Shown here one piece after another: positions 17,708 through 43,297 of a stretch of 64,000 bases of DNA. The notes below the pieces were generated by a model, which was given only the letters and a program-made list of their open reading frames with translations, had not been told where the DNA came from and made no database searches. Location of the stretch: sequence record PX092659.1; one strand, 5' to 3'. Every line of letters starts with the position of its first letter. Within the stretch, counting starts at the first letter, position 1. This stretch comes from a phage. The translations under genes and the position numbers were made by a program.

Positions 17708-17740
17708 AGCACAGAGAAAACCGAGCCAAAATGACTCGGT
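17708..17740 (-). terminator. rho-independent terminator (minus strand)
   Basis: Stem ACCGAG / CTCGGT followed on the minus strand by TTTTCTCTGTG; directly downstream of CDS 17749-17943. Confidence 0.6.
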
Positions 17741-17748
17741 TATACGGA

Positions 17749-17943
17749 TTAATCATAAAAAAGACCACGAATAGTATTAGCAAATTTAAGTATAATAGCG
17801 CGGTTTGAGCTACTTAACTTTTTAATATCGAAAGTGGGATCAGTCAAATATCTCGCCATAAATTTTACTTGTTTAGCTGAAAGTTGACCCTTATTCCACT
17901 TTTTAATTTTACCATAACATACCCAATATTCTTTATTCATCAT
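17749..17943 (-). CDS. hypothetical protein
   Basis: 64-aa track ORF. Confidence 0.4.
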   Translation of the reverse strand: MMNKEYWVCYGKIKKWNKGQLSAKQVKFMARYLTDPTFDIKKLSSSNRAIILKFANTIRGLFYD

Positions 17944-18325
17944 TTAGTCCCGGAACATAGATCCCAACACGATTTAATTGTTCTTTAGCTTCTTTGAGAA
18001 TATCTGGAGTGTACTCCCAAATATCATCTTCCACCTGTAAAAGATGTGGCGAACAACCGTCATCAGGCACACGACATATGGCCAAACCACGTGGATGGAA
18101 CAAAGAGAAATTTAGGGCAACAATCAAGCCCATAGCAGACAATTCATTCCAATCCAATTCCCATTCCCTGGCATATCCAGACAGGAAAATGCCAATGCAT
18201 GGATCATCTATTTGCTGCTCCGGAAAAGTGAAGGAGGCTTGTCTTACCCCCAACCAACGTTGTAGCAGCTTCTCCGCACGCTTCACCAAACTAGGATCAA
18301 TCTGACGCCAGTATACTTGTTCCAT
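17933..18325 (-). CDS. hypothetical protein (paralog of 18335-18763)
   Basis: 130 aa; shares motifs with the neighbour (PCIGI.L, W.ELD.N/EL..MGL..ALN..LF.P, C-terminal GIYVPGL). Confidence 0.5.
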   Translation of the reverse strand: MEQVYWRQIDPSLVKRAEKLLQRWLGVRQASFTFPEQQIDDPCIGIFLSGYAREWELDWNELSAMGLIVALNFSLFHPRGLAICRVPDDGCSPHLLQVEDDIWEYTPDILKEAKEQLNRVGIYVPGLNDE

Positions 18326-18334
18326 TATGCCTCC

Positions 18335-18763
18335 TTAGGCAGTTAAACCCGGAATTTGATAACCAAAACGGCGAAGTTTTTGGATACCATCATTTACTTC
18401 TTCCGGTGAGTAAGACCAACCATAACGTTCATTAACCTGAAAACCAGGAGATTCACTAGTTTTATAGTTAACAACGAGGCGATGCTTAGCAGGCATAAAC
18501 AGCTTATAGTTTAACGCAAAAACTAAGCCCATTTCATCTAACTCTTTCCAGCCGACAATTTCTTCAAGACCATCCTCTACCTGCACAATTAAACCAATAC
18601 AGGGAGCCTCATCAATATCATCTTTAAAAGCAAAGGAGATTTCGTTATTCTCACACCATATTTTCAAAGAGTTAATAGCCTCATTATACAGGCTAGCTGG
18701 GAGAGTACGCCAAAAGTTAACCAAAATTGGGTTAGCTTCTTTAGAGAGTACATTATTGAACAT
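18335..18763 (-). CDS. hypothetical protein (paralog of 17933-18325)
   Basis: 142 aa; APCIGLIVQVEDG, WKELDEMGLVFALNYKLFMP, C-terminal GYQIPGL. Confidence 0.5.
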   Translation of the reverse strand: MFNNVLSKEANPILVNFWRTLPASLYNEAINSLKIWCENNEISFAFKDDIDEAPCIGLIVQVEDGLEEIVGWKELDEMGLVFALNYKLFMPAKHRLVVNYKTSESPGFQVNERYGWSYSPEEVNDGIQKLRRFGYQIPGLTA

Positions 18764-18765: not shown

Positions 18766-19272
18766 TTACACCTTAAATTGTTGTAAGGATTTACACATTT
18801 CAAGATCTGGGCTAAATTCTAGCATATAGCTAACAGCTTTTAAATCTTGAAGATTTATCCCAGTCCTACCGTTGACTATAACTGTTGGATACTGATACAT
18901 CATAGCACCCGCATCATCAAGTACACACCAATGTTTGAGCTTATACTTTTCAACGAAACGAAGAACAGAATTACCCCTAGATAATCCACCTCCAGTAAAA
19001 TCCGTTGTACCAAGAAAACGATCGATAAGACCTAATCTGGTCATAATCTGAACGTTCTCCATCTCATTTCTAACAGAGAACCAAGATGATACTCCAACAA
19101 TCATTATCGGAGAAGGACGAATAAAGTCCTGAAAAGCCTTGAGAAGCGGTTTGAAAACCCAGTCACTTCCAAAGAAAATCTTTTCATCATCAGGTGCATG
19201 ATGGTGGGAGATGCTCGAATTGAGCACCCCATCAATGTCTAGAAAAATAATCGGAGTATTACTTATTTCCAC
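18766..19272 (-). CDS. HAD-superfamily hydrolase-like protein
   Basis: 168 aa; N-terminal HAD motif I FLDIDGVLN and later VLDDAG. Confidence 0.5.
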   Translation of the reverse strand: MEISNTPIIFLDIDGVLNSSISHHHAPDDEKIFFGSDWVFKPLLKAFQDFIRPSPIMIVGVSSWFSVRNEMENVQIMTRLGLIDRFLGTTDFTGGGLSRGNSVLRFVEKYKLKHWCVLDDAGAMMYQYPTVIVNGRTGINLQDLKAVSYMLEFSPDLEMCKSLQQFKV

Positions 19273-19441
19273 TTTTGTCCCTTTCTAAGAACGTATCATA
19301 CTCAACCGTATCAACATATATGACACCATAGTCATCGGATTTATAGTCCATTTCCCACAGCTCACAGCGATAGCACCAACTACCGTCCGCCCATACAAAT
19401 ATATCATCAGGGTGTGCATACACAGATTTAATTATGGACAT
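19259..19441 (-). CDS. hypothetical protein
   Basis: 60-aa track ORF. Confidence 0.4.
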   Translation of the reverse strand: MSIIKSVYAHPDDIFVWADGSWCYRCELWEMDYKSDDYGVIYVDTVEYDTFLERDKSGNK

Positions 19442-20255
19442 ATTTGTTCCCCGGCATATAAGGCCTACCCTCTAGATGAGCTTCTACACGAGCAATAAAA
19501 TCAGGGTCACTGAAGGCATCTACAGCCCCTTTACCCCAGTAAGGGATACCGCGTTCTTCCAACTGGTACATCTCACTACGAGTCATGCCTTGATAGCCAG
19601 GTTCCGCTGCTAGGGCATTATCATAGTAGTTAACAACCATTAGCTTGGCAGCAGTAAGGTTAAGAATAGGAAATAATTCCCAGTAGAAGTTAATTACTTG
19701 GTTAGAGCAACCAACCACAATGATCATATCTTGACTGGTAATACCATCAAAAACATTGTACATTTCTGTATATGCTGGAGCATGCTCACCAAAGAAGATG
19801 ACATTAGGTTTAACCCATTTATAGTCATCTGGGTCAATAGAGTTATACCCAACATCAATAATTCGTTTATTACTACTATTGTAGCTATCAGCTACAACAA
19901 CCTCCTTTAAGTATCCATGAATGTGGAGAATATCATTATGGGGAACACCAGCACGCTCAATAAGGTCATCAACGTTAGTAGTCAAATTTACTACTTGACC
20001 TGGGTATTGTTTATACCACTCACCAATACGAAGATGCGCAAGGTTAGGTTCAACAGTTTTTAGCTCTTCACGACGCTTGTTGTAAAACATATGGGTTTTA
20101 TGATAAAAATTACCACGAAAGGCATGAATATTACATACTTCTTCTAGATCATAATCATCCCACAATGCTTTACCACTAGCAGTATCAGTACGAAAGGCTC
20201 GTACACCACTTTCAACGCTCAAACCCGCACCGCTAATAATAATTAATCTACGCAT
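19428..20255 (-). CDS. Sir2-family (sirtuin-like) NAD-dependent protein
   Basis: 275 aa; sirtuin motifs GAGLSVESGVRAFR, TTNVDDLIERAG, catalytic-His region LHIHGYL; no Cys4 zinc module seen. Confidence 0.65.
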   Translation of the reverse strand: MRRLIIISGAGLSVESGVRAFRTDTASGKALWDDYDLEEVCNIHAFRGNFYHKTHMFYNKRREELKTVEPNLAHLRIGEWYKQYPGQVVNLTTNVDDLIERAGVPHNDILHIHGYLKEVVVADSYNSSNKRIIDVGYNSIDPDDYKWVKPNVIFFGEHAPAYTEMYNVFDGITSQDMIIVVGCSNQVINFYWELFPILNLTAAKLMVVNYYDNALAAEPGYQGMTRSEMYQLEERGIPYWGKGAVDAFSDPDFIARVEAHLEGRPYMPGNKYVHN

Positions 20256-20469
20256 TTTTCACCTGTTCTCTGAAGTTTTGCCCAATACTGTCTAATAGCT
20301 CAGCTAATTCTTTATTGCCTTTCTCCATTAAGGTATTAGCAATAACTTCTAGCATAGTAGCGCAGGATTCAACACCATCCTTATAGCCAGTTTCCCAGTG
20401 CTGCATTAATGCGTTTTCCAAAGCGGCGTTTAAACCCTTATCTGGTAGTATCGGCTTCAAGAATGCCAT
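20248..20469 (-). CDS. hypothetical protein
   Basis: 73-aa track ORF. Confidence 0.45.
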   Translation of the reverse strand: MAFLKPILPDKGLNAALENALMQHWETGYKDGVESCATMLEVIANTLMEKGNKELAELLDSIGQNFREQVKNA

Positions 20470-20641
20470 AAAGTTTCTCCTCTAATTCCATAACACGATT
20501 TTCATAAGAGGCACGCAACTTTTCAATTGCCAGTGCACGCACCGTAACCTCATTAGAATTAATAGCTAATTGGGCCAGATCTTCTGTTTCCATACGTCCG
20601 TTGTAAATTAAGCGATATTTAAGATGTTTTACGTTTTTCAT
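20438..20641 (-). CDS. hypothetical protein
   Basis: 67-aa track ORF. Confidence 0.45.
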   Translation of the reverse strand: MKNVKHLKYRLIYNGRMETEDLAQLAINSNEVTVRALAIEKLRASYENRVMELEEKLYGILEADTTR

Positions 20642-20650
20642 TCTTGTTCC

Positions 20651-20932
20651 TTAGTTCTGTACTGTAAATTCATTCTTATCACAGTGAGCATAATAATACC
20701 CATACATACGATAAATCTTCACAGCCTTAGTAGACCCCTTCGATTCTTCGTAATCAATCCAGAGCCACTTGTCTTTACCTACATAATGTACCCGAAACTT
20801 CTTAACTTTCTTATCATTCCATGTTGCAACAACACGACGATAATCAAATCCGCCCAACCAATCCAGAGCTTTACGTTCTTCACTAGGCTCTCCAAGATGG
20901 GAGACATCTACTTTAGGAAGCAACTCGCTCAT
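20651..20932 (-). CDS. hypothetical protein
   Basis: 93-aa track ORF; promoter cassette immediately upstream. Confidence 0.5.
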   Translation of the reverse strand: MSELLPKVDVSHLGEPSEERKALDWLGGFDYRRVVATWNDKKVKKFRVHYVGKDKWLWIDYEESKGSTKAVKIYRMYGYYYAHCDKNEFTVQN

Positions 20933-20989: not shown

Positions 20990-21031
20990 ATAAAATAAAA
21001 GCCAGGTCGACTAGCAACCCGGCTGATTAGC

Positions 21032-22858
21032 TTACTTAAGATTTAAGTGTTTTACTCTACCAAGAACTTCTTTTTGTTTCCCAGAATTGAAAGGCCTACT
21101 GCCAGGAGATCCCAGGTACCCGCAAACCCTACGTGTAACCTCTATTTCTTCAGACCCACAACTCGGACATACAAACCCACGTTCAGAGGCAACAGATTCA
21201 CCCATATACCCACAGTTGAAGCACTCATCAATTGGTATATTAACACCAATATAATGGCTACATTCTAGCCCCTTATCCACCACATACTCAAGAGCTTTGT
21301 GGAACTTTTTCATTTGAGGTAGTTCCACAAATGATATATTACCACCATTAGCTATTTTGGTAAAATGAGCCTCGTACTCAAATTTAGTATCTGGAGCTAC
21401 CTTCTCTCTTACGTCCAAATGGTGACTATTAGTAAGATAGCCTTTGTCTGTTAACCAAGAATACTCTGGGAATCTACGTTCTAGTAATTTATTAAAACGA
21501 TTACATAGAGACTCACTAGGAGTAGCATACAAGCTAAACCCAAGATTAGTCTCATTAGCTTTAACTTCGCAACGATTTTTTAGGTGAGTGAGAACTTCCT
21601 CTGTAAATTCAATACAGTCCCTATGGGTCTGTGGTAAACTAAACATTATTTGGCACATCTCATAGACCCCAATATACCCAAGAGATACAGAGGATCTACC
21701 CTCAAAAATAGGCCATACATATTCTTCCCCTTCTAAACGTGCACCAAACCCACCGTGCATATAAAGAATAGGGGCTTGTTTAGCCTTAACTTTCTTCAGT
21801 CTGTTTAAGAAGAAGTCATGCGCTTCAAAAGCCTCATCCACATATTTGTCTAGAATACCCCAGAAATCTTCAAAAACTCCATCTGCCTCAGCAGCAACCA
21901 TAGGTAGATTGATAGACACAACACCTAAATTATTACGTCCTGCAATTTCTCCAGAGGGGATAGCAGATAAAAAACTACGACAACCCATAGGGGCTTTAAA
22001 ATCACCAGTAACAGCTACAACTCTCTCGTAACTTAAATAGTCTGGATACATACGAGTAGCAGAACACTCAAGTGCTAGCTGTTTTATATCATAGTTAGGA
22101 TCACCTGGGTTTTTATTTAACCCTTCTTTAACTGAGAATACTAGTTTAGGGAAGATAGGGGTTGACTCAGCAGCACCTAAACCTTTAATGCGATTTTGGA
22201 GGATGGCTTTCTGAATCATCCTTTCCTCCCACTCCTGCCCTAATCCAAAGCCAAGCGTAACAAAAGGGGTCTGCCCATTAGAGTTAAATAATGAATTAGT
22301 TTCATACTCTAGAGCTTGGAATGCATCATAACACTCTTTTTCAGTAAGCTCAGTAGCATACACAGCAGCTTTTCTTTCATCCTTGAGCCAACGTAGCCCA
22401 CGACCCAGATGTTTATTGTAAGACTTTCTGACATACGGGGCTAGAACCTCGTCGATACGATCAATAGAGGTGCCACCATACTGAGCACCAGATACTTGGG
22501 CAATAATCTGAGCAGTGATTGCACATGCAGTAGTTATGGATTTAGGAGTTTCAATATTTGCATTACCAATTTTAGTACCATTCTTCAGCATGCCACCAAG
22601 GTCTACTAAGCAACAGTTAGTGTACCCCTGCGCCCTGTAATCCATATCATGAATGTGTATCTTACCTAGATTATGTGCGTCTAATAGATGTTTGGGTAAT
22701 TCCTGCGATACTAAATACTTGTTGATTTCTCCGGCTAATAAGTCTCTTTGAGTATGGAACATCTCACTAGGCTTATTAGCATTATTATGTTGTAAGTCCT
22801 TGTCAGCAGTTAGAGTGAGCAGGCCTTTGCAATTCTCAATTAATTCATTCTCTGTCAT
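21032..22858 (-). CDS. nrdD: anaerobic ribonucleoside-triphosphate reductase (class III RNR)
   Basis: 608 aa; C-terminal Cys4 zinc ribbon (CFNCGY...CPSCGS) and glycyl-radical motif RRVCGYLGS. Confidence 0.8.
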   Translation of the reverse strand: MTENELIENCKGLLTLTADKDLQHNNANKPSEMFHTQRDLLAGEINKYLVSQELPKHLLDAHNLGKIHIHDMDYRAQGYTNCCLVDLGGMLKNGTKIGNANIETPKSITTACAITAQIIAQVSGAQYGGTSIDRIDEVLAPYVRKSYNKHLGRGLRWLKDERKAAVYATELTEKECYDAFQALEYETNSLFNSNGQTPFVTLGFGLGQEWEERMIQKAILQNRIKGLGAAESTPIFPKLVFSVKEGLNKNPGDPNYDIKQLALECSATRMYPDYLSYERVVAVTGDFKAPMGCRSFLSAIPSGEIAGRNNLGVVSINLPMVAAEADGVFEDFWGILDKYVDEAFEAHDFFLNRLKKVKAKQAPILYMHGGFGARLEGEEYVWPIFEGRSSVSLGYIGVYEMCQIMFSLPQTHRDCIEFTEEVLTHLKNRCEVKANETNLGFSLYATPSESLCNRFNKLLERRFPEYSWLTDKGYLTNSHHLDVREKVAPDTKFEYEAHFTKIANGGNISFVELPQMKKFHKALEYVVDKGLECSHYIGVNIPIDECFNCGYMGESVASERGFVCPSCGSEEIEVTRRVCGYLGSPGSRPFNSGKQKEVLGRVKHLNLK

Positions 22859-23708
22859 TGATTATTTCCTCGATAAACTTTATAGCTACTTTTGGTTCAA
22901 TATTGAAGAATTCCGTAGCGCCATCAAAATCTTTGTAATGGCAATTCTGTTCTTTAAAGTAGTTATGAGCTAATTTTTCGATTCGAACTGCACTACTATA
23001 TTCGCCAATTTCAAATACTTTAAGTATTTCCAAATCAATAAGGTGGCCACTAGATTTAATATGTAGAAGCCTACGCTCTGGATTGTTAGACCTACCTATT
23101 TTAACTCCATGTGTGGGGCTATGCATAACATATATCTTAGTACTTTCTAAATCTCTATAGCTACAGTAAGGACAACCGTTCCCTCTTAATACAGATCCTG
23201 GAGTAGCTCCCCACCTATGCCCTGCGCCACAGAGAAAGGTAGTCTTAGTATTCGCATTAACATATTCACCTACTATTCTGATATTTCTGGCAGTAAGACG
23301 ATCATTTATAACACTAATACTAAGTTTCTGCTTATTAATAGCACAAGACGGACAGCCACTCCCCCTATTAATTATGCTATTAAGCGTAGTAGTCCACTCA
23401 TGACCACAAATACACCTAAATTTAGTGTTTATATCAACACTATTTTTATATCCCCCCAACAATGTAATACCTCTGTCCTGTAATACAGAACTAATTTTAT
23501 CAATATCTAGTTTACGGCTATTAGTAGAGCAAGTAGGACAATTGGTCTTTCCATTCCTAATAGCGTCAAATTTAGCTGTCCATTGATGGCCATATTCACA
23601 CTGATACGTATGCCTATACCTAGAATTTTGATACGGCTTATCCACCATAGTAAAACCACGCTCGGCTAGGCATTTATCTACTTCTTCTTGGGTTAATTTT
23701 TTCGGCAT
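22845..23708 (-). CDS. Zn-ribbon repeat protein with C-terminal T5orf172-like (GIY-YIG superfamily) domain
   Basis: Track ORF runs to 23765 but overlaps the promoter; ATG at 23708 (MPKKLTQEEV) with GGAGAAGAG upstream is the likelier start. Repeated CxxC units, then IYVMHSPTHGVKIGRSNNPERRLLHIK. Confidence 0.55.
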   Translation of the reverse strand: MPKKLTQEEVDKCLAERGFTMVDKPYQNSRYRHTYQCEYGHQWTAKFDAIRNGKTNCPTCSTNSRKLDIDKISSVLQDRGITLLGGYKNSVDINTKFRCICGHEWTTTLNSIINRGSGCPSCAINKQKLSISVINDRLTARNIRIVGEYVNANTKTTFLCGAGHRWGATPGSVLRGNGCPYCSYRDLESTKIYVMHSPTHGVKIGRSNNPERRLLHIKSSGHLIDLEILKVFEIGEYSSAVRIEKLAHNYFKEQNCHYKDFDGATEFFNIEPKVAIKFIEEIINDRE

Positions 23709-23736
23709 TACTCTTCTCCATAGAATTTTTACATTT

Positions 23737-23765
23737 ATTATACTAAACATTATCCACCATGTCAA
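23737..23765 (-). promoter_or_regulatory. sigma70 promoter (minus): TTGACA-N17-TATAAT, leftward arm of divergent region
   Basis: Reverse complement gives TTGACA tggtggataatgtttag TATAAT. Confidence 0.6.
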
Positions 23766-37089: not shown

Positions 37090-37164
37090 CGGGGTGTAGT
37101 CTAAGGGAGAGGCAGGAGTCTTCTAAATTCCTTTATGCAGGTTCGAATCCTGTCACCTCGGCCA
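37090..37164 (+). tRNA. tRNA-Arg (anticodon TCT)
   Basis: Manual cloverleaf: acceptor CGGGGTG/CACCTCG, anticodon loop CTTCTAA, T-arm GCAGG-TTCGAAT-CCTGT, CCA encoded. Confidence 0.7.
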
Positions 37165-37198
37165 ATTTTATTAACTGTAACTAAAACAAAGGAAATAT

Positions 37199-38146
37199 AT
37201 GTTTAATACTAAAAATATGAAAGAACTGACTTCTGAGCAGAAAGTAATTCGTACTATTAAACGTTGGGGTATTGGTGCTGTAGTTGGTTTAGCAGGCTTG
37301 ATTCTAGCCTTTAATTCATATACTATTGTTTCTGATGGTACGGTTAAAACTCAAACATTTCTGGGTAAAGTAGATCCTAACCCAGTATTACCAGGTTTCC
37401 ATCTTGTAAACCCCTTTGCATCTTTCGACACTTTTAGTACAAAAGATATTGCTGTAAAATTAGATAAACTTCAAGTTCCTAGTCAGGATAAATTTAAATC
37501 CACTGTTGACCTGACTGTTATGTTGCAGTTTGATGGTTCTAAGGCACCGATTAACCGTATTAATGCGGGTACTCAGGATCAAGCGTTAGACAAATATGTA
37601 ACTGAAAAATTACTGTCTACTATTCGTGAGTTTGGTAAGTCTGTACCTAAAGCACAAGATTTGTTTGATGCTAAAATTCAGGCTCAATTGCAAACTGCAA
37701 TTCAACAGGAAGTTGAAGAGTATGCACGCCCATATGGTTATACAGTTAAGCAGGTATTCCTTCAGGATATTACTTTGCCACCGGTAATCATGGAACAGGT
37801 ACAGAATACCAAAGTTCGTGAAGAACAGGTTAATGCTGCTAAAGCTGAATTAGCTCGTGTTGAACAGGAAGCACAGCAAAAAGTTAAACAAGCAGAAGCA
37901 GATCGCGAAGCTCGTAATAACCAAGCTATTGCCAATGAGCGTGACGCAGATGCCAAACTGTACGCAGCTAAGAAAGAAGCTGAAGCTAACGCCGCGTTGC
38001 AACGTACCATTACTCCTGAGATGATTCGCTGGAAGCAACTGGAAGTTGAAATGATTCGTGCTCAGAAATACCAAGGTGGTGTACCGCAGACTGTGGTTGG
38101 CACTGGCTATGATGGCCAAATGATTATGGATATGCGTAATAAATAA
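37199..38146 (+). CDS. SPFH/band-7 (prohibitin/HflC-like) membrane protein
   Basis: 315 aa; N-terminal TM helix (IGAVVGLAGLILAF), SPFH-like core, C-terminal Ala/Glu/Gln-rich coiled coil. Confidence 0.7.
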   Translation: MFNTKNMKELTSEQKVIRTIKRWGIGAVVGLAGLILAFNSYTIVSDGTVKTQTFLGKVDPNPVLPGFHLVNPFASFDTFSTKDIAVKLDKLQVPSQDKFKSTVDLTVMLQFDGSKAPINRINAGTQDQALDKYVTEKLLSTIREFGKSVPKAQDLFDAKIQAQLQTAIQQEVEEYARPYGYTVKQVFLQDITLPPVIMEQVQNTKVREEQVNAAKAELARVEQEAQQKVKQAEADREARNNQAIANERDADAKLYAAKKEAEANAALQRTITPEMIRWKQLEVEMIRAQKYQGGVPQTVVGTGYDGQMIMDMRNK

Positions 38147-38170
38147 TACCCGCATGTAACATCTGAAATA

Positions 38171-38205
38171 AGCCCTGCGTTTCCTGGAGAGCGCAGGGCT
38201 TTTCT
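38171..38205 (+). terminator. rho-independent terminator
   Basis: AGCCCTGCG ... CGCAGGGCT stem followed by TTTTCTG. Confidence 0.75.
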
Positions 38206-38221
38206 GTATTTAAGATAAAAG

Positions 38222-38256
38222 AAAAGCCCCTAAGTCTTTCGACTAGGGGCTTTATT
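38222..38256. terminator. bidirectional rho-independent terminator
   Basis: GCCCCTAAGTC tttc GACTAGGGGC with T-runs on both strands; ends the plus-strand SPFH unit and the minus-strand pair 38471-39901. Confidence 0.7.
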
Positions 38257-38470
38257 GTTTGGTTCTTTAGAACCATATACTCTTGTTACAGCAACCACCC
38301 ATACGGGAGGCCAATCTTGACTGAAAATCTACTCTAGGGGGCAGGATAAGAGTAGGCTTAAAGGCAAACGGATTGAACGCCGGTATTTGTGTAAACATTG
38401 CTGGAGAGCAACAACGTGCTACAGGCATTGGGCAGCACGAAATAGATTTTCTGCAACACATAATTTCTCC

Positions 38471-38887
38471 TTAGGAGTTATTACCACCATTTTGAGCTTT
38501 TGCAACTTGGCTTTGGCAGAAGCTATTAAACTTACCCATAAGTGATACAAGCTGTTTCCCATCCTCTGTCTTTGCGAAGTCTTCGAAAAGGGCTAGTACT
38601 GCCTGTCCTTCCGCAGAAACCTGCGGTTGTTGGGTTTGTTGCTGAACTTGCTGCTGAGGCACCTGTTGCTGCATTTGTTGAGGCATTTGCGACTGCCCGC
38701 TCATTTGCTGCATCATTTGCATAGGACTCACACTTCCAGGGTTTTGCTGGAGTTGTTGCTGCATCTGTTGCGCTTCTGCTAAACGCTGTTGCAATTGTTG
38801 TAAGTAGGGGTTATCCAGACCCGGAATGGGCTGCTGGGAGCCCATACTTTGATTAAGTCCGTTATTTACAAAACCATATTTACTCAT
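38471..38887 (-). CDS. hypothetical Gln-rich low-complexity protein
   Basis: 138 aa; about 35 percent Gln (QQLQQRLAEAQQMQQQLQQ...); part of the inverted two-gene module. Confidence 0.5.
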   Translation of the reverse strand: MSKYGFVNNGLNQSMGSQQPIPGLDNPYLQQLQQRLAEAQQMQQQLQQNPGSVSPMQMMQQMSGQSQMPQQMQQQVPQQQVQQQTQQPQVSAEGQAVLALFEDFAKTEDGKQLVSLMGKFNSFCQSQVAKAQNGGNNS

Positions 38888-38908
38888 AATGGGCTCCTCC
38901 CCTTAATA

Positions 38909-39901
38909 TTAAGCCGGCAGTTTAGCCTGCAGACCAGCCAGAGTCTGAGTGATAGCACCAAGACTTACAGCGATTTGATTAATTACCTGACCGTTAGCAC
39001 CGTTACCCGCAGCGATTGCTTCACGTAGGCGACATGCATCTAACTCATCCTGAATACGAGCAGTAGTTACACCAGCGATAGCAGTCTGAAGTTCACAGCA
39101 ACATTCAGCGATCTGACGTTCCAGAGAGTTCTGGTTAGCACACATCTGAGCCTGAACAGCGGCAAACTGGTTATTAGTTTGTAAAGTCTGCTGGAAAGCG
39201 ATCTGTGCAGAATCAAACTTATCTTGTGCACGAGCTATCTGATTAGCTGCGAAAGATTGATCAATCTGGCGAGAAAGATCGAACTGACCCTGAATAACGT
39301 TGCGAGTTTCCTGACAGATCTGATTAGACAGATTAGCACCTGTACCATAGATCGTAGTTAGTACAGACTGAGTATCACGGCTCTGGTTTTGGGATGTCTG
39401 GCTAAACCCATTGTTAACTGCGCTTAAAACAGCTCCAGTACCCTGGTTAGCTTCTGTACGAGTAGTGTTAATAGCTGCTAGAATACTAGCGGTATCTTGG
39501 TTCTGAAGTACTGCATCAACTGCGGTACCATCACCAACTACACCACGTCCACCGAATCCACCGAAACCACCGAATCCGCCTGTTAATAGAGCACCGATTA
39601 GGATAGCTCCGAATAGTCCCATACCTTCACCACCGAAAGCACCTGCGTTTGCTGGGTAACCACCCAGTAGGCCAGGGAAGCCACTAGTAAATACGTTTAC
39701 TGGTTCTTGCATTTTATGTTTTCCATATTTATGACAATGTTCATCGTCATCTTCTTCATCATCGTGTTCACGATGTTTTTCTTCGTAGGCTCTGACCTTC
39801 TCCCACTTTTTCTTATCTGATTCCTCGTGACGGTGCAGTTCTGCTGCAACGCTAGCGACGGTCTCAGGACTCTTAGCTACTTCTTCTGTCATTTTTGACA
39901 C
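38909..39901 (-). CDS. hypothetical membrane protein with glycine-zipper TM segment and Gln/Asn/Cys-rich C-terminal domain
   Basis: 330 aa; acidic/His-rich N-terminus, Gly-zipper TM (GLFGAILIGALLTGGFGGFGGFGG), Q/N/T-rich C-terminal half with Cys clusters (AECCCELQ); AGGAGGTG RBS. Confidence 0.55.
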   Translation of the reverse strand: MSKMTEEVAKSPETVASVAAELHRHEESDKKKWEKVRAYEEKHREHDDEEDDDEHCHKYGKHKMQEPVNVFTSGFPGLLGGYPANAGAFGGEGMGLFGAILIGALLTGGFGGFGGFGGRGVVGDGTAVDAVLQNQDTASILAAINTTRTEANQGTGAVLSAVNNGFSQTSQNQSRDTQSVLTTIYGTGANLSNQICQETRNVIQGQFDLSRQIDQSFAANQIARAQDKFDSAQIAFQQTLQTNNQFAAVQAQMCANQNSLERQIAECCCELQTAIAGVTTARIQDELDACRLREAIAAGNGANGQVINQIAVSLGAITQTLAGLQAKLPA

Positions 39902-39952
39902 CTCCTAGTATATAGAAAATGTGTGTCTCTTTGATCACTCATCCATAACATA

Positions 39953-39981
39953 TACTTTACACTACCCCAGCGAAAATGTCA
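39953..39981 (-). promoter_or_regulatory. second promoter class (minus): TTGACATTTTCGC-type
   Basis: Reverse complement reads TTGACA ttttcgctggggtagtg TAAAGT; shares the 13-nt TTGACATTTTCGC with 9576-9604. Confidence 0.55.
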
Positions 39982-40098
39982 AGGGGTCTTTAAAAATTGC
40001 CCCTGAATTTTTAGTGGGGTCACAAATTTTGGTCCTCACCATTTATCTGCTATCCTTAAGTGCCCTATGATTTTCCTCTAAAAAGTTAAAAAATTTGA

Positions 40099-40127
40099 TT
40101 GCTTGAATGCTAAATTCTCTGTATAAT
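40099..40127 (+). promoter_or_regulatory. sigma70-type early promoter: TTGCTT-N17-TATAAT
   Basis: Cassette match. Confidence 0.6.
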
Positions 40128-40157
40128 ATATCTATAAATTTGAAAGAGGAACCAAAT

Positions 40158-40676
40158 ATGAATGTTGATGAGCTAACACAGCACCTCTTATCTAGAGGAT
40201 TTGATACAGATAAATATCATTGCTGGTTAAGTCCGGAAGGATGGCTAACAGTCCCGTTGTATGACTTCTCTGGGATGTTGAGGGGCTATCAAACTTATAA
40301 TCCTTCTGCTCCAAAAGGTCATGGTAAGTGCCCCTTTGAAGCTAAATACTTTACTTATTCTACTACCCAGTGTGTATGGGGACTAGAAACTCTCAATGGA
40401 GATGAAAAAGTAGTATTGATTGCTGAATCTGTATTTAAGGCAGTTGCGTTACATAATGCTGGTTATCCAGCCCTAGCAATGTTGGGTTCTTCTCCAGGAA
40501 AAGCGTTATTAAAGCAACTGAAATTACTACCTTTTAAATTGGTAGCTGTCGGAGATAATGATCCTGCGGGTGAAAAATTTGCTAGAAAATTAAACGGCTT
40601 TGTTTCTCCCGTAGATGTGGATGAGATGTCTACCGAAAACTTGAAAAATTTTCTTGCTATGAAGCTAAATTTCTAA
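40158..40676 (+). CDS. small TOPRIM-domain-like protein
   Basis: ATG 40158 after GAAAGAGGAAC RBS (track ORF extends to 40107); TOPRIM-like Glu (LIAESVFK) and DxD (AVGDNDPAG). Confidence 0.45.
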   Translation: MNVDELTQHLLSRGFDTDKYHCWLSPEGWLTVPLYDFSGMLRGYQTYNPSAPKGHGKCPFEAKYFTYSTTQCVWGLETLNGDEKVVLIAESVFKAVALHNAGYPALAMLGSSPGKALLKQLKLLPFKLVAVGDNDPAGEKFARKLNGFVSPVDVDEMSTENLKNFLAMKLNF

Positions 40677-40682
40677 TATAAT
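40654..40682 (+). promoter_or_regulatory. sigma70-type early promoter: TTGCTA-N17-TATAAT (inside 3' end of previous ORF)
   Basis: Cassette match; would drive the tRNA-Ser/tRNA-Met pair. Confidence 0.55.
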
Positions 40683-40697
40683 ATATCTTATAAATTC

Positions 40698-40786
40698 GGA
40701 AGAATAGCATAACGGTATTGCAGCAGATTGCTAATCTGTCGGCTTGAAATATAGCCTTGTGGGTTCGATTCCCACTTCTTCCGCCA
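40698..40786 (+). tRNA. tRNA-Ser (anticodon GCT), class II
   Basis: Acceptor GGAAGAA/TTCTTCC, anticodon loop TTGCTAA, long variable arm, T-arm GTGGG-TTCGATT-CCCAC, G73-CCA. Confidence 0.75.
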
Positions 40787-40792
40787 AACATA

Positions 40793-40867
40793 GGGTCGGT
40801 AGCTTAAAGTTAAAGCGGTGGCCTCATAAGCTAACGAGTAGGAGTTAGATTCTCCTCCGACCCACCA
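40793..40867 (+). tRNA. tRNA with CAT anticodon (Met, fMet or Ile2 type)
   Basis: Perfect acceptor GGGTCGG/CCGACCC, D-stem GCTT/AAGC, anticodon loop CTCATAA, T-arm AGGAG-TTAGATT-CTCCT. Confidence 0.7.
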
Positions 40868-40881
40868 ATTAGGTACTGCGT

Positions 40882-41283
40882 ATGGAAAAGGTTGAATTTG
40901 AGTACTTTGGAGTTATTTTAATTGTACACTTAAATGGTACAATAGAAACTAAAGATAGAATAATAACACAACGAAATCAATATGGCGAGTATACTAGAAC
41001 TATAAAAGGAAAGGTACTGTCTCCACGTTGCAATGGTAAATCTGGGTATTTTCAGGTGAAGATTTGCAATAAGGGATTAGGTAAAAATGAGTATGTGCAC
41101 AGACTCGTATGGATGGCTTTCAACGGTGAAATACCGGAAGGCTATGAAATAGAGCACAAAGATGATGATAAGTCTAATAATGCTTTACCTAACCTAGAAT
41201 TATTCACAAGAAAGCAGAATATGGACAAAGTCTTAAATAAGATGACTAGAGATTCTCTAGGTCGTTTTGAAAAACTTAACTAG
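40882..41283 (+). CDS. HNH homing endonuclease (divergent copy) inside tRNA cluster
   Basis: 133 aa; HRLVWMAFNGEIPEGYEIEHKDDDKSNNALPNLELFTRKQN. Confidence 0.6.
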   Translation: MEKVEFEYFGVILIVHLNGTIETKDRIITQRNQYGEYTRTIKGKVLSPRCNGKSGYFQVKICNKGLGKNEYVHRLVWMAFNGEIPEGYEIEHKDDDKSNNALPNLELFTRKQNMDKVLNKMTRDSLGRFEKLN

Positions 41284-41291
41284 GAGACTAT

Positions 41292-41477
41292 ATGTCTAAG
41301 TTTCAAGAACTCAAGCAAGAGCTAGAAGAATGTGCCTGCCCTGAGTGTAGAGGAATTGGTGAAAGTTCTGATGCAGAAGCAGGAGATACTTTTTGCAATA
41401 TCTGGGTTTGCCCAACTTGCAATGGTACAGGTATTAATCCTAACTGCGGTATTTCCCTAGATATTGAGCGAGGATAA
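41292..41477 (+). CDS. hypothetical small Cys-rich protein (two CxxC pairs)
   Basis: 61 aa; CACPECRG ... CPTCNG. Confidence 0.45.
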   Translation: MSKFQELKQELEECACPECRGIGESSDAEAGDTFCNIWVCPTCNGTGINPNCGISLDIERG

Positions 41478-41578
41478 TACCTGTGAAACTAAAAGATTAT
41501 TATATTGGTTGGTTTGTGGGACTAGTAGTAGTATTTTCACTAGGCTATAATATGTATCAACTAATAAACTGATTACAT

Positions 41579-41655
41579 GGGGGTGTAATCGAATTGGCAT
41601 AGGTACTGGACTTAAAATTCAGGTTTTGTGGGTTCGAATCCCACCACCCCTACCA
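41579..41655 (+). tRNA. tRNA with TAA anticodon (Leu-type anticodon) but short variable arm
   Basis: Acceptor GGGGGTG/CACCCCT, anticodon stem CTGGA/TTCAG with loop CTTAAAA, 5-nt variable region, T-arm GTGGG-TTCGAAT-CCCAC, A73-CCA. Confidence 0.6.
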
Positions 41656-41830
41656 AATTAAGGAAATAAGATGTATAGACATCCACCTCCGCCAACACGT
41701 CGTTCCAGAGAAGTTATCCTCATGGAGTTGACTAAAAACTTCAAGGCAACTCTTGAAGATAGAGATTTAGGCACGGATGAAGACATTGATTTTATTTGTA
41801 GACTATTAAAGATGAAACTGGAGAAACAAC

Positions 41831-42037
41831 ATGGCTAATCCTGAAATTACCGCACAACGTTTCATGCTTAAAGGCATGATTGCTGAAGCAGGTATGACTC
41901 AAGAGGTTGCAGACTTTCATAAGCAATTTCTTGATATTATAACTCTAGCTAAAGAGACTGGAGAAAAAGAACACGGAGCAGCAATTATGGCTATATCTCT
42001 TATTAGTCTAGACTTGGCTGAAGAATCTGGAGTTTAG
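41831..42037 (+). CDS. hypothetical protein
   Basis: 68-aa track ORF; a 56-aa ORF at about 41671-41841 precedes it. Confidence 0.45.
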   Translation: MANPEITAQRFMLKGMIAEAGMTQEVADFHKQFLDIITLAKETGEKEHGAAIMAISLISLDLAEESGV

Positions 42038-42067
42038 CTCCTCCAAACAGAATTTTTAAAAATGTAC

Positions 42068-42097
42068 TTGCCTTTTGCTTTAAATTTCTGATATAAT
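42068..42097 (+). promoter_or_regulatory. sigma70-type promoter (TTGCCT-N18-TATAAT)
   Basis: Cassette-like with 18-nt spacer. Confidence 0.45.
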
Positions 42098-42127
42098 AGT
42101 TATATAAATTGATGAAGGAGTTAACGA

Positions 42128-42403
42128 ATGCAAAATCGTGTTATAGCAGCTGGTATTGAAAGTGCAATCTGTAAATCCTGGGAAGGCTGGGAAGGTGAGA
42201 TTGAATGGCTTTATTTCTATGATGTAGAACTTCTGCCGGAAGTTAAAGCTAAATGTGTTGAAGCTGGCATGGCTCCAGATGCAAAAGCTGATATTGATAT
42301 TTCAATGTCTGAACTTAAAGGTCGTGTAATTACTGTTAGTGATGAGGGCGAAGAAGTCTTCGAACTTCCATTCTCCTTAATTGTCACTCCTAAGTTCGAC
42401 TAA
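42128..42403 (+). CDS. hypothetical protein
   Basis: 91-aa track ORF after GAAGGAG RBS. Confidence 0.5.
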   Translation: MQNRVIAAGIESAICKSWEGWEGEIEWLYFYDVELLPEVKAKCVEAGMAPDAKADIDISMSELKGRVITVSDEGEEVFELPFSLIVTPKFD

Positions 42404-42439
42404 CTAATACAGCACTGAGCAAGTTCTTTAAAATTTGAC

Positions 42440-42468
42440 TTGCTCAGTGCTATAAAACTTGATATAAT
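42440..42468 (+). promoter_or_regulatory. sigma70-type early promoter: TTGCTC-N17-TATAAT
   Basis: Cassette match; drives the RNA-only unit 42496-42938. Confidence 0.55.
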
Positions 42469-42495
42469 AGTTATCTAATTTGGAAAGTTCTTTTT

Positions 42496-42589
42496 AAGGT
42501 AGTTCCTACTTTAGTAGAGTAAATTTTTGGCAGATGGCCCCACCATTTTACCGATAACTCCTAGTCAGTGCGGCAACACTGGCTACCTT
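42496..42589 (+). ncRNA. candidate tRNA-sized structured RNA (non-canonical, no consensus T-loop)
   Basis: Terminal 7-bp helix AAGGTAG/CTACCTT encloses three hairpins (CTAC-ttta-GTAG; ATGG-cccca-CCAT; CAGTG-cggcaa-CACTG); lies between promoter and tRNA-Tyr. Confidence 0.3.
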
Positions 42590-42600
42590 AAAGAGAATTT

Positions 42601-42687
42601 GGGCGTTTATTCCGTAAGTGGTAGCGGAGGGGATTGTAAATCCCTGGTCATTGCGACTCGAGTGGTTCGACTCCATTAACGCCCACC
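42601..42687 (+). tRNA. tRNA-Tyr (anticodon GTA), class II
   Basis: Acceptor GGGCGTT/AACGCCC, anticodon loop TTGTAAA, long variable arm, A73-CCA. Confidence 0.75.
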
Positions 42688-42695
42688 AAATTTAA

Positions 42696-42772
42696 GTCCT
42701 GTTAGACAAACGGGTAAAGTCACTACCCTTTCAAGGTAGGATTTGCGGGTTCGATCCCCGCACAGGACGCCA
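42696..42772 (+). tRNA. tRNA-Glu (anticodon TTC)
   Basis: Acceptor GTCCTGT/ACAGGAC, anticodon stem CTACC/GGTAG with loop CTTTCAA, T-arm GCGGG-TTCGATC-CCCGC. Confidence 0.8.
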
Positions 42773-42780
42773 ATTTCTGC

Positions 42781-42857
42781 ATTCCTAGAGTGTTACTGGA
42801 CAGCATGTCGGTCTCCAAAACCGTACGGTCTAGGTTCGAGTCCTAGTAGGTTTGCCA
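42781..42857 (+). tRNA. tRNA-Trp (anticodon CCA), two U-U mismatches in acceptor stem
   Basis: Anticodon loop CTCCAAA on stem CGGT/ACCG; T-arm CTAGG-TTCGAGT-CCTAG; acceptor ATTCCTA/TAGGTTT pairs at 5 of 7 positions. Confidence 0.55.
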
Positions 42858-42863
42858 AAATTT

Positions 42864-42938
42864 GCACCTTTAGCTGAGATGGATTAGCGCTTGCCTGAAG
42901 AGCTTGAGAGGTTCGTTCGATACGAACAGGGTGCACCA
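42864..42938 (+). tRNA. tRNA-Phe (anticodon GAA)
   Basis: Acceptor GCACCTT/AGGGTGC, D-stem GCTG/TAGC, anticodon loop CTGAAGA, T-arm GTTCG-TTCGATA-CGAAC. Confidence 0.65.
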
Positions 42939-42955
42939 AATTGAAGGAGCTGCTG

Positions 42956-43228: not shown

Positions 43229-43249
43229 TTTCTAAAAGTTCTGTATAAT
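43221..43249 (+). promoter_or_regulatory. sigma70-type early promoter: TTGCTT-N17-TATAAT (within 3' end of previous ORF)
   Basis: Cassette match. Confidence 0.55.
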
Positions 43250-43297
43250 AATTACATAAATTGAACTGGAGAAGCAACATGACAGAACAAGATAAAC

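What the first reader, a model, noticed from the sequence alone, without database searches (positions are those of the whole stretch)
19428..20255. Phage sirtuin-like (Sir2) gene in a block of uncharacterised small genes next to nrdD
The protein has Sir2 motifs (GAGLSVESGVRAFR, TTNVDDL, HG) but apparently lacks the Cys4 zinc module. Sir2 domains act as NAD-consuming effectors in bacterial defence, so a phage copy could be a deacetylase or ADP-ribosyltransferase modifying host proteins, or a counter-defence or NAD-manipulating factor. It is flanked by a HAD-like hydrolase and five small unknown ORFs (18766-20932).
Basis: partly seen in the sequence, partly recalled or inferred. Interest (0 to 1): 0.5.

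Follow-up and report, generated by a model that had tools for sequence, protein, structure and literature searches.

The report
Known zinc-less sirtuin of T5-like phages
This is the well-annotated Sir2-like gene of T5-type phages, a zinc-less relative of the bacterial deacylase CobB that always sits beside a small phosphatase; its presence and a proposed RNA-repair role are already published, but no experiment found here has shown what it does.

Summary
ORF 19428-20255 (minus strand, 275 aa) is a real Sir2-family gene (Pfam SIR2 E=7e-25). It has the NAD-binding loop, the catalytic His-Gly and the class-III Tyr/Arg pair. It has no zinc cysteines, and Thr replaces the usual Gln (TTNVD instead of TQNID).

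It is not new. The window is a T5-like phage, and the gene is 92% identical to T5.102, annotated "putative Sir2-like protein" in the T5 record. About 1000 phage records carry the family. The missing zinc site was noted in 2016 (PMC5107563). The pairing with a "Swiss-army-knife" HAD phosphatase, and a predicted RNA-repair role, were published in 2022 (PMC9503650).

The protein resembles CobB and SIRT5, not defence-type Sir2 NADases (no PADLOC match). Sirtuin-HAD adjacency survives a gene-order inversion in distant T5-like contigs. In Vequintavirinae the sirtuin lies inside an RNA ligase-cREC-kinase cassette. Phage DT57C has lost both enzymes in one deletion, so the module is dispensable.

Best guess (about 0.4): an NAD-dependent reaction on phosphorylated RNA ends. 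Close rival (about 0.35): an ordinary protein deacylase. New lead: a HAD homologue sits beside NAD-rebuilding genes in another phage. Interest is modest.

The parts
19428..20255 (-). Zinc-less, class-III-derived phage sirtuin (orthologue of T5.102), 275 aa
   Evidence: Pfam SIR2 E=7e-25 and PHROG 2162 E=4.5e-121. Best solved relative is E. coli CobB 1S5P, E=1.9e-17 by sequence and E=1.6e-15 by fold. AF2 model pLDDT 86.7. 92% identical to T5.102. Invariant G9-A-G11, S13, F21-R22, Y58/R61/R62, T92-T-N-V-D96, H113-G114, F154-F155/E157, G182/S184, N209.
18766..19272 (-). Capless HAD-superfamily phosphatase of the HAD_SAK_2 type (orthologue of T5.105), 168 aa, GTG start
19259..19441 (-). 60-aa ORF between sirtuin and HAD (T5.104 homologue). 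It overlaps the sirtuin stop and the HAD start by 14 nt each.
   Evidence: ORF list. phrog_5116 E=1.3e-28, function unknown. 95% identical to the T5 copy.
20248..20469 (-). 73-aa acidic ORF whose end overlaps the sirtuin start codon by 8 nt
   Evidence: phrog_5827, function unknown. No Pfam or PADLOC hit.
20438..20641 (-). 67-aa ORF, function unknown
   Evidence: phrog_5236. 87% identical to the copies in the T5 and IrmaTschudi loci.
20651..20932 (-). 93-aa ORF, first gene after the nrdD terminator
   Evidence: phrog_7953. 100% identical to the Epseptimavirus IrmaTschudi copy.
18335..18763 (-). DUF7415 protein (T5.106 homologue), first of two tandem paralogues
   Evidence: PF24187 E=2.6e-35, two repeats. 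phrog_2502.
17933..18325 (-). DUF7415 protein (T5.107 homologue), second tandem paralogue
   Evidence: PF24187 E=3.5e-31. phrog_2502.
21000..21024 (-). Terminator-like hairpin after nrdD; upstream boundary of the gene string
   Evidence: Consensus scan: 10-bp stem, 6 GC pairs, T-run. The T5 record annotates a terminator and then a promoter at the same place.
17719..17741 (-). Terminator-like hairpin downstream of the gene string
   Evidence: Consensus scan. Pattern match only.

Best explanation
The gene encodes a catalytically competent NAD+-consuming sirtuin-fold enzyme. It belongs to a phage-only, zinc-less branch of the class-III (CobB/SIRT5) sirtuins. It works with the HAD phosphatase two genes downstream, as an accessory, dispensable module in the gene string between nrdD and the replication genes.

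The most likely job is the one proposed by Iyer et al. 2022 (PMC9503650): clean-up of damaged RNA ends, probably tRNA cut by host nucleases. In that scheme a 2'-phosphate on the RNA takes the place of the acyl-lysine oxygen. It attacks C1'' of NAD+ and releases nicotinamide. The His113-activated ribose 2''-OH then resolves the adduct. [quoted passage not shown] This is Tpt1/KptA-like chemistry on a different fold. The HAD then either removes a remaining terminal phosphate from the RNA or dephosphorylates the ADP-ribose phosphate by-product.

Shown here: family membership, intact NAD and catalytic residues, loss of zinc ligands, conserved gene linkage, and dispensability. Inferred only: the substrate and every chemical step.
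For: 1. NAD-site and catalytic residues are invariant in 28 diverse members. All 120 close homologues keep T93, H113, Y58 and R61. This looks like an enzyme under selection, not a relic.
2. Two departures from deacylase sirtuins define the clade and co-vary. Zinc ligands are missing in 120 of 120 close homologues. Gln is replaced in TQNID. Among 146 representatives clustered at 50% identity, Gln loss and zinc loss go together (Fisher p=2e-14, not corrected for phylogeny).
3. Sirtuin-HAD_SAK_2 adjacency holds in T5 and Epseptimavirus. It also holds in two distant T5-like contigs where the order is inverted (HAD, small ORF, SIR2) and the HAD is only 39% identical.
4. In Vequintavirinae the orthologous sirtuin lies inside an RNA-end-healing cassette of Rnl1-type RNA ligase (PF09511), cREC (PF20274), a P-loop kinase and a metallophosphoesterase. 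This is seen in two phage records and one metagenome contig.
6. The invariant Tyr/Arg pair binds an anionic group in class-III sirtuins (established knowledge for SIRT5 and CobB) and could hold a phosphate.
7. The window carries 24 tRNA genes.
8. The prediction is published independently (PMC9503650, section 3.7.3).
Against: There are no biochemical data for any member in the literature searched.

The residues that line the acyl-lysine tunnel in deacylases are conserved (F154-F155-G-E157, V187), which fits an ordinary peptide substrate equally well.

The family is acidic (pI 4.6-5.8), which is unusual for an RNA-binding enzyme.

This window has no RNA ligase, cREC or polynucleotide-kinase homologue (tblastn), so in T5-like phages the pathway would need host enzymes.

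In other lineages the sirtuin sits beside an ATP-dependent DNA ligase and MazG, or near NAD-rebuilding genes, with no RNA-repair gene in view.

T4 polynucleotide kinase does not appear in either listed set of HAD fold matches.

The 'RNA repair' label of PF18143 is itself a computational prediction.
Confidence: 0.4

Rival explanations
1. It is an ordinary NAD+-dependent protein lysine deacylase like CobB or SIRT5, probably preferring acidic acyl groups such as succinyl or malonyl. It would remove acyl marks from host or phage proteins during infection. Possible targets are the catalytic lysines of ligases, or metabolic enzymes such as acetyl-CoA synthetase. The zinc site would have been replaced by other packing, and the neighbouring genes would reflect co-expression only.
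For: The closest sequences and folds are all true deacylases: CobB, Sir2Af1/2, SIRT5, Sir2Tm. Every residue known to matter for deacylation is kept: catalytic His, N94/D96, the FGE loop, V187, and the class-III Y-x-x-R pair. The AF2 model has beta-strands at 114-122, 131-134 and 147-152, spanning the segment that aligns to the zinc-module region. Skliros et al. argued the same for Vibrio phage homologues (PMC5107563). The HAD's best fold neighbours are protein phosphatases, so the pair could be two erasers of protein modifications. The sirtuin often lies next to ligase genes.
Against: All the solved deacylase sirtuins inspected here (CobB, Sir2Af2) carry cysteines in the zinc-module segment. 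This clade has lost them together with the conserved Gln. Scores fall far below the NCBIfam cut-offs for CobB-type deacylases: 90 bits against 320, and 99.7 against 243. Repeated operon-level linkage to RNA-end enzymes and to the HAD, even after gene-order inversion, is hard to explain by timing alone.
Confidence: 0.35
2. The sirtuin-HAD pair acts on the NAD+/ADP-ribose pool in the arms race with NAD-depleting defences. For example, the HAD could dephosphorylate ADPR-1''-phosphate or a related ADP-ribose phosphate, as a non-homologous counterpart of the Macro-domain phosphatase Adpp. The sirtuin could make, exchange or consume such a compound.
For: A HAD_SAK_2 homologue (37-39% identical) lies immediately upstream of, and on the same strand as, a Prs-like plus Nampt-like gene pair with the NARP1 (Adps/Namat) architecture. 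In Serratia phage ChuuTotoro its end overlaps the start of the Prs-like gene. The same arrangement occurs in a 152-kb metagenome phage contig. In another roughly 150-kb phage contig the sirtuin lies about 2.5 kb from such a pair and near a NADAR gene. A phosphatase added to NARP1 is a proven counter-defence against RES-type NAD+ phosphorolysis (bioRxiv 10.64898/2026.01.28.702374). A Tpt1-like reaction and NARP1 chemistry would both give ADP-ribose cyclic phosphate (for the NARP1 by-product).
Against: Sirtuins consume NAD+, which by itself would hurt the phage. No Adps or Namat homologue is in this window. The HAD-NARP1 adjacency was seen in only a few genomes (one record at 99% identity or more and two at 80-90%). 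The closest fold relatives of the HAD are not nucleotide or sugar-phosphate phosphatases. No mechanism for the sirtuin in this scheme is established.
Confidence: 0.15
3. It is a defence-type Sir2 NADase or toxin carried by the phage, for superinfection exclusion or host shut-off, that simply hydrolyses NAD+.
For: The gene lies in a non-structural gene string.
Against: No PADLOC model matches. No defence Sir2 appears among the listed fold matches. The protein is a stand-alone 275-aa enzyme with no sensor or partner domain. It retains the deacylase-type substrate loop and the Tyr/Arg pair.
Confidence: 0.04

Closest known systems
T5.102 'putative Sir2-like protein' of Escherichia phage T5 (AAS77148.1), PHROG 2162
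   Same: 92% amino-acid identity. Same position between nrdD and the replication-origin-binding protein gene. Same downstream genes: T5.104, T5.105 (HAD) and T5.106/107 (DUF7415).
   Different: The window lacks the extra small ORF T5.103 (no match; ORF list). Its upstream small genes differ from those of T5. No functional difference is expected.
Phage sirtuin clade with the 'SAK-type HAD' neighbourhood described by Iyer, Burroughs, Anantharaman and Aravind 2022 (PMC9503650, section 3.7.3, prototype Escherichia phage SP15)
   Same: Same gene pair (sirtuin plus Swiss-army-knife HAD) in a T5-like phage, with no adjacent Macro gene. Orthologues lie in RNA ligase-cREC-kinase cassettes of rV5-like phages.
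   Different: Nothing differs in kind. Added here: the Gln-to-Thr change co-varies with zinc loss; the pair survives a gene-order inversion; a natural double deletion exists; and the HAD also occurs next to NARP1-like genes.
E. coli CobB and human SIRT5 (class III sirtuins)
   Same: Rossmann NAD-binding core, GAGxS loop, N/D of the QNID motif, catalytic His, FGE loop, Y-x-x-R anion-binding pair. Best sequence and fold matches.
   Different: No zinc-binding cysteines. Thr replaces the conserved Gln. VYP becomes VINF after the GxS motif. The C-terminal 90 residues are divergent. Only about 25% identity, and scores are far below the NCBIfam CobB cut-offs.
Tpt1/KptA RNA 2'-phosphotransferase
   Same: Only the proposed chemistry: attack on NAD+ C1'' with nicotinamide release, then attack by the ribose 2''-OH (PMC11417386 for Tpt1; the analogy is drawn in PMC9503650).
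   Different: The fold is unrelated (Tpt1 belongs to the ADP-ribosyltransferase superfamily per PMC9503650). There is no sequence relationship, and no activity has been shown for the phage sirtuin.
Defence Sir2 NADases (ThsA, DSR1/2, SIR2-HerA, short-pAgo-associated Sir2)
   Same: Sir2 superfamily and NAD+ as substrate.
   Different: No PADLOC hit, no partner or sensor domain, and none among the listed structural neighbours. The phage protein keeps features of deacylase-type sirtuins.
Adpp, the Macro-domain ADPR-1''-phosphate phosphatase of the extended NARP1 pathway (bioRxiv 10.64898/2026.01.28.702374)
   Same: It is a phosphatase gene sitting with Adps/Namat-like genes. A HAD_SAK_2 homologue occupies a comparable position in phage ChuuTotoro.
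   Different: Different fold (HAD, not Macro). In the window the HAD is next to a sirtuin, not NARP1. No activity data exist.

Membership tests
Sir2/sirtuin superfamily (Pfam PF02146) | Profile score above the curated gathering threshold over the full domain | tested here: met
   88.4 bits against a cut-off of 24; residues 9-187 cover profile positions 1-178 of 180.
Sir2/sirtuin superfamily (Pfam PF02146) | NAD-binding GAGxS...FR loop, and Asn and Asp of the (T)QN(I/V)D motif | tested here: met
   G9-A-G-L-S13, F21-R22, N94 and D96 are invariant in 28 members. They align to the same residues of CobB.
Sir2/sirtuin superfamily (Pfam PF02146) | Conserved Gln of the TQNID motif | tested here: not met
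   Thr93 in the window protein and in 120 of 120 close homologues.
Sir2/sirtuin superfamily (Pfam PF02146) | Catalytic His (HG motif) | tested here: met
   H113-G114 invariant.
Sir2/sirtuin superfamily (Pfam PF02146) | Structural zinc site (CxxC...CxxC) in the small domain | tested here: not met
   No Cys between residues 114 and 149. Close homologues have 0-2 Cys there, and no representative with a Cys-poor segment has a CxxC pair.
Class III sirtuins (CobB/SIRT5 type protein deacylases) | Y-x-x-R pair that binds acidic acyl groups | tested here: met
   Y58 and R61 (FYNKRR) align to FYNARR of CobB. They are invariant in 120 close homologues.
Class III sirtuins (CobB/SIRT5 type protein deacylases) | Scores as a CobB-type deacylase in curated NCBIfam models | tested here: not met
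   NF040867 (equivalog) 90 bits against a cut-off of 320; NF001753 (subfamily) 99.7 against 243.
Class III sirtuins (CobB/SIRT5 type protein deacylases) | NAD+-dependent removal of acyl groups from lysine | not testable with these tools
   This needs an enzyme assay. No published assay for any phage member was found.
Phage sirtuin clade predicted to act in RNA repair (Iyer et al. 2022) | Phage-encoded sirtuin adjacent to a SAK-type HAD, with no linked Macro domain | tested here: met
   HAD_SAK_2 lies two genes downstream with overlapping reading frames. No Macro domain in any of the eight operon proteins.
Phage sirtuin clade predicted to act in RNA repair (Iyer et al. 2022) | Orthologues embedded in RNA ligase / cREC / kinase cassettes in other phages | tested here: met
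   MaxTheCat, PVP-SE1 and a 133-kb metagenome contig. Sirtuin identity to the window protein is 56-61%.
Phage sirtuin clade predicted to act in RNA repair (Iyer et al. 2022) | NAD+-dependent removal of RNA 2'-phosphate (the predicted activity) | not testable with these tools
   Prediction only. No experiment was found.
Defence-type Sir2 NADases (Thoeris ThsA, DSR, SIR2-HerA, SPARSA) | Match to a defence-system Sir2 model and linkage to a sensor or partner (SLOG, HerA, pAgo, large C-terminal domain) | tested here: not met
   No PADLOC hit for the sirtuin or any neighbour. Stand-alone 275-aa protein. The listed fold neighbours are all deacylases.
Macro-linked class M sirtuins (SirTM) | Operon partner with a Macro domain | tested here: not met
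   No Macro domain in the operon. The catalytic His is retained.
HAD phosphatase superfamily, HAD_SAK_2 (PF18143), for the neighbour gene 18766-19272 | Four HAD motifs (DxD nucleophile, S/T, K/R, DD) and a profile score above threshold | tested here: met

The most novel reading that the evidence does not exclude
The zinc-less, Thr-for-Gln phage sirtuins may not be deacylases at all. They may use a phosphate oxygen as the nucleophile on NAD+ (an RNA 2'-phosphate, or another phosphorylated substrate) and so produce phosphorylated ADP-ribose. HAD_SAK_2 would then be a dedicated phosphatase for that ADP-ribose phosphate. The same HAD has been recruited next to NARP1-like genes, where it would be a non-homologous counterpart of the Macro phosphatase Adpp. 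The T5 sirtuin-HAD pair would then link RNA-end repair to the NAD+/ADP-ribose arms race, and would be the first sirtuin with a nucleic-acid or phosphate substrate.
Probability: 0.15. Interest if true: 0.75.

Novelty: already known. Interest (0 to 1): 0.33.

Why it matters
T5 is a classic model phage, and this sirtuin family sits in about a thousand sequenced phages, including several BASEL collection phages. None of the papers found here reports an experiment on its function.

If the RNA-repair prediction holds, it would be a new reaction type for the sirtuin fold and a new way for phages to survive tRNA-cutting defences. If it is a plain deacylase, it would be a clear case of a phage rewriting host protein acylation. 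Either way the question can now be tested cheaply. The protein is small and models well. Phage DT57C is a natural mutant that has lost both enzymes. Phage DT571/2 keeps the HAD.

As a scan finding it is nonetheless a rediscovery of an annotated gene.

Tried and rejected
- PADLOC scan of all eight operon proteins gave no hits, so the defence-system reading was dropped.
- Sequence search of the HAD and of DUF7415 against solved structures gave nothing useful.
- tblastn of the Vequintavirus RNA ligase, cREC, kinase, metallophosphoesterase, MazG-like protein and DNA ligase, and of the ChuuTotoro Adps/Namat-like proteins, against the window gave only noise.
- Pfam scans of ten other window ORFs found no NAD-salvage genes.
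- The 184-aa protein that overlaps the sirtuin start in phi92-like phages has only five homologues and no Pfam hit.
- A check of whether an active sirtuin without zinc ligands has been characterised (the Sir2La papers) was uninformative.
- The sigma-70 promoter scan of the operon did not exceed chance.
- I did not check whether phage ChuuTotoro carries the sirtuin elsewhere in its genome. It is absent from the site upstream of DNA ligase where it sits in a related contig.
Full report
**What the window is.** The 2.3-kb stretch around the finding matches 447 phage records by megablast. The best is Salmonella phage vB_Sen_I1 at 96.7% identity, and the records are overwhelmingly T5-like phages of Salmonella and Escherichia (Demerecviridae, Tequintavirus). 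Gene order is that of T5: replication-origin-binding protein, two DUF7415 genes, HAD, small ORF, Sir2, small ORFs, nrdD, then phoH and nrdA on the other strand. The window also holds 24 tRNA genes at 37090-49147.

ORF 19428-20255 (minus strand, ATG, 275 aa) matches Pfam SIR2 over the whole domain (E=7e-25, 88.4 bits against a cut-off of 24) and PHROG 2162 'Sir2' (E=4.5e-121). The protein has two cysteines (C41, C183). Neither lies in the segment (about 114-149) that aligns to the Cys-bearing segment of CobB and the CxxC...CxxC of Sir2Af2. The downstream gene 18766-19272 is a HAD hydrolase of the HAD_SAK_2 family (PF18143, E=3.9e-19).

**It is an already annotated gene.**
- The protein is 92% identical to T5.102, annotated 'putative Sir2-like protein' in the T5 record AY543070.
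- tblastn finds the family in 998 phage records: T5-like phages, Vequintavirinae, phi92-like phages, KVP40-like vibriophages and jumbo phages. Many are annotated as Sir2 or NAD-dependent deacetylase.
- Skliros et al. 2016 noted that phage Sir2/CobB proteins lack the zinc ligand, and listed T5 among the carriers (PMC5107563).
- Iyer et al. [quoted passage not shown] They proposed that the sirtuin removes RNA 2'-phosphates in the manner of KptA (PMC9503650, section 3.7.3).
- Four literature searches found no experimental test.

**What kind of sirtuin it is.** By sequence the best solved relatives are E. coli CobB (1S5P, E=1.9e-17), then Sir2Af2, Sir2Af1 and SIRT5. A family profile raises CobB to E=1.2e-26. 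An AlphaFold2 model built on 28 homologues is confident (pLDDT 86.7, pTM 0.86). Its Foldseek neighbours are again CobB (E=1.6e-15, TM 0.69/0.82), Sir2Af1, SIRT5 and Sir2Tm. No defence-type Sir2 is among the listed matches. PADLOC models match neither the sirtuin nor any neighbour. The model has beta-strands at 114-122, 131-134 and 147-152, spanning the segment that aligns to the zinc-module region, so that module appears to be kept without the metal ligands.

**Residue conservation.** In an alignment of 28 members (50-97% identical) the following are invariant:
- G9-A-G11, S13 and F21-R22 (NAD loop);
- N94 and D96;
- H113-G114 (catalytic His);
- K149-P150, F154-F155 and E157 (substrate loop);
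- G182 and S184, V187-I188, N209;
- the class-III pair Y58 and R61, which align to FYNARR of CobB.

Two departures are equally invariant. Thr93 replaces the Gln of TQNID, and zinc cysteines are absent. All 120 close homologues have T93, H113, Y58 and R61, and at most two cysteines in the module segment. A profile search of 1.84 billion representative proteins found 5610 proteins at E<=0.001. Among 146 usable top representatives, 77 have Gln and at least three Cys, and 43 have neither. The 26 mixed cases split 17 (no Gln, Cys kept) and 9 (Gln kept, no Cys) (Fisher p=2e-14, not corrected for shared ancestry). So the gene belongs to a recognisable zinc-less, Thr-for-Gln branch of class III. It scores far below the NCBIfam cut-offs for CobB-type deacylases (90 bits against 320; 99.7 against 243). 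I therefore do not file it as a CobB orthologue. The family is acidic (pI 4.6-5.8).

**The operon.** From the terminator-like hairpin after nrdD (21024-21000) to one at 17741-17719, eight ORFs run head to tail on the minus strand, several with overlapping stop and start codons. In order:
- orf93, orf67, orf73;
- Sir2;
- orf60;
- HAD;
- two DUF7415 genes.

**Is the sirtuin-HAD link real?**
- The pair is present in T5 and in Epseptimavirus IrmaTschudi in the same order.
- In two distant T5-like metagenome contigs the order is inverted (nrdD, then HAD, small ORF, SIR2) and the HAD is only 39% identical, yet the two genes are still separated by one small ORF.
- Between the window and IrmaTschudi the HAD is 91% identical and orf93 100%, but the sirtuin only 52%. 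The sirtuin allele has therefore diverged or been exchanged within a conserved frame.
- Phage DT57C carries a 90-codon remnant annotated 'Sir2-like (defective)'. Mapping shows it joins sirtuin residues about 165-215 to HAD residues about 134-168, so one deletion removed the catalytic parts of both enzymes. The module is therefore dispensable for this isolated phage, and its relative DT571/2 keeps a full HAD.

**Contexts in other lineages.**
- Vequintavirinae: the orthologous sirtuin (56-61% identical) lies in a cassette of Rnl1-type RNA ligase (PF09511), cREC (PF20274), a P-loop kinase (AAA_33), a metallophosphoesterase and a MazG-like protein, next to an ATP-dependent DNA ligase. This is seen in MaxTheCat, PVP-SE1 and a 133-kb metagenome contig. 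It reproduces the published RNA-repair context.
- phi92-like phages: the sirtuin start is overlapped by a 184-aa acidic protein of unknown function.
- Two contigs of about 133 and 150 kb: the sirtuin precedes an ATP-dependent DNA ligase and MazG. In one of them it lies 2.5 kb from a Prs-like plus Nampt-like pair and near a NADAR gene.
- This window: no homologue of the RNA ligase, cREC, kinase, or the Prs-like/Nampt-like pair.

**A lead not in the papers I read.** Homologues of the HAD (37-39% identical) lie directly upstream of a Prs-like plus Nampt-like pair, on the same strand. In Serratia phage ChuuTotoro (Vequintavirinae) the HAD's end overlaps the start of the Prs-like gene. The same arrangement occurs in a 152-kb metagenome contig. 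That pair has the architecture of NARP1 (Adps plus Namat), the pathway that rebuilds NAD+ from ADP-ribose and nicotinamide (bioRxiv 10.1101/2024.02.11.579819). The Prs-like protein is 37% identical to the one in Vibrio phage ICP1. Osterman et al. 2026 showed that some NARP1 operons add a Macro-domain phosphatase (Adpp). It converts ADPR-1''-phosphate to ADP-ribose and so defeats RES-type defence (bioRxiv 10.64898/2026.01.28.702374). A HAD is not mentioned in that paper. HAD_SAK_2 may therefore handle a phosphorylated ADP-ribose. This would fit the second option of Iyer et al., in which the partner enzymes process the ADP-ribose cyclic phosphate left by a Tpt1-like sirtuin reaction. The evidence is thin, since only three records hold close relatives of the ChuuTotoro HAD.

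**Weighing the explanations.**
- For an RNA-end role: the repeated, rearrangement-proof linkage to end-processing enzymes; the joint loss of two hallmarks of deacylase sirtuins; the mechanistic parallel between sirtuin and Tpt1 chemistry; an invariant anion-binding pair.
- For an ordinary deacylase: every nearest relative is one; all deacylation residues, including the acyl-lysine loop, are kept; the protein is acidic; T5-like phages carry no RNA ligase or kinase in this window.
- For an NAD/ADP-ribose role: only the HAD-NARP1 adjacency and the proximity in one contig.

I put these at about 0.40, 0.35 and 0.15, with a defence-type NADase at about 0.04. No step of any mechanism is shown. Only membership, residue conservation, linkage and dispensability are.

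**Verdict.** The finding is a correct reading of a real gene, but the gene, its missing zinc site, its HAD partner and a functional hypothesis are all already in the literature. Novelty: already known. Interest is modest (0.33). It rests on the function still being untested in a model phage, and on the possibility that this clade performs non-deacylase chemistry linked to NAD+ conflicts.

Noticed in passing
window 18766-19272; L001 4067-4573; L003 2980-3252: RefSeq and other records label the HAD gene 'Sir2 (NAD-dependent deacetylase)'. The likely cause is PHROG 18062, a 92-position family named Sir2. It matches the HAD C-terminal half (E=3.6e-56) and only weakly matches sirtuin residues 169-216. 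It resembles deletion-fusion remnants like the DT57C ORF. This is an annotation error that has been propagated.
   Followed up: partly
L003 (phage DT57C) 2980-3252, against window 19762-19620 and 18874-17935: DT57C has a natural deletion that fuses sirtuin residues about 165-215 to HAD residues about 134-168, destroying both enzymes. Phage DT571/2 keeps the HAD. This offers a ready-made comparison.
   Followed up: yes
L017 5001-8217 (Serratia phage ChuuTotoro ON287369, 35888-39104); L016 5001-8569: A HAD_SAK_2 homologue lies directly upstream of, and on the same strand as, a Prs-like plus Nampt-like pair with the NARP1 (Adps/Namat) architecture. In ChuuTotoro it overlaps the start of the Prs-like gene. 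It may be a HAD-type counterpart of the Macro-domain phosphatase Adpp. It is not mentioned in the aRES/NARP1-AP preprint.
   Followed up: partly
window 19428-20932 against L007 (IrmaTschudi): Local mosaicism between Tequintavirus and Epseptimavirus. Identities are orf93 100%, orf67 87%, HAD 91%, but sirtuin 52%, orf73 34% and orf60 46%. The sirtuin and its two flanking small ORFs behave as a divergent cassette within a conserved frame.
   Followed up: partly
window 17933-18763: Two tandem paralogous genes (142 and 130 aa), each with two DUF7415 repeats, follow the HAD (T5.106/T5.107). The T5 record notes similarity of T5.105 and T5.107 to neighbouring ORFs of Aeromonas phage Aeh1, which suggests a wider HAD-DUF7415 linkage. 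Function unknown.
   Followed up: no
L006 5459-6013; L012 5456-6016: In phi92-like phages a 184-186-aa acidic protein (phrog_9509, annotated 'putative aminoacyl-tRNA synthetase' in the BASEL record) overlaps the sirtuin start. It has invariant cysteines C13, C36, C39 and C64 (SDCETCG motif) and a poly-Glu tail. It may be a metal-binding partner of the zinc-less sirtuin.
   Followed up: partly
window 22845-23765 (minus strand): A 306-aa ORF (TTG start) whose end overlaps the nrdD start. It has repeated CPxC motifs. At the same position a distant T5-like contig has a gene with T5orf172/MUG113 hits (L015 2395-3060). It looks like a mobile endonuclease-type insertion upstream of nrdD.
   Followed up: no
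window 21032-22858: NrdD is only 57-60% identical to the T5 and IrmaTschudi proteins, but 69-73% identical to those of two distant T5-like metagenome contigs. This is another sign of module exchange in the region.
   Followed up: no
window 37090-49147: A cluster of 24 tRNA genes interspersed with small ORFs, typical of T5-like phages. It is relevant background for any tRNA-repair hypothesis.
   Followed up: no
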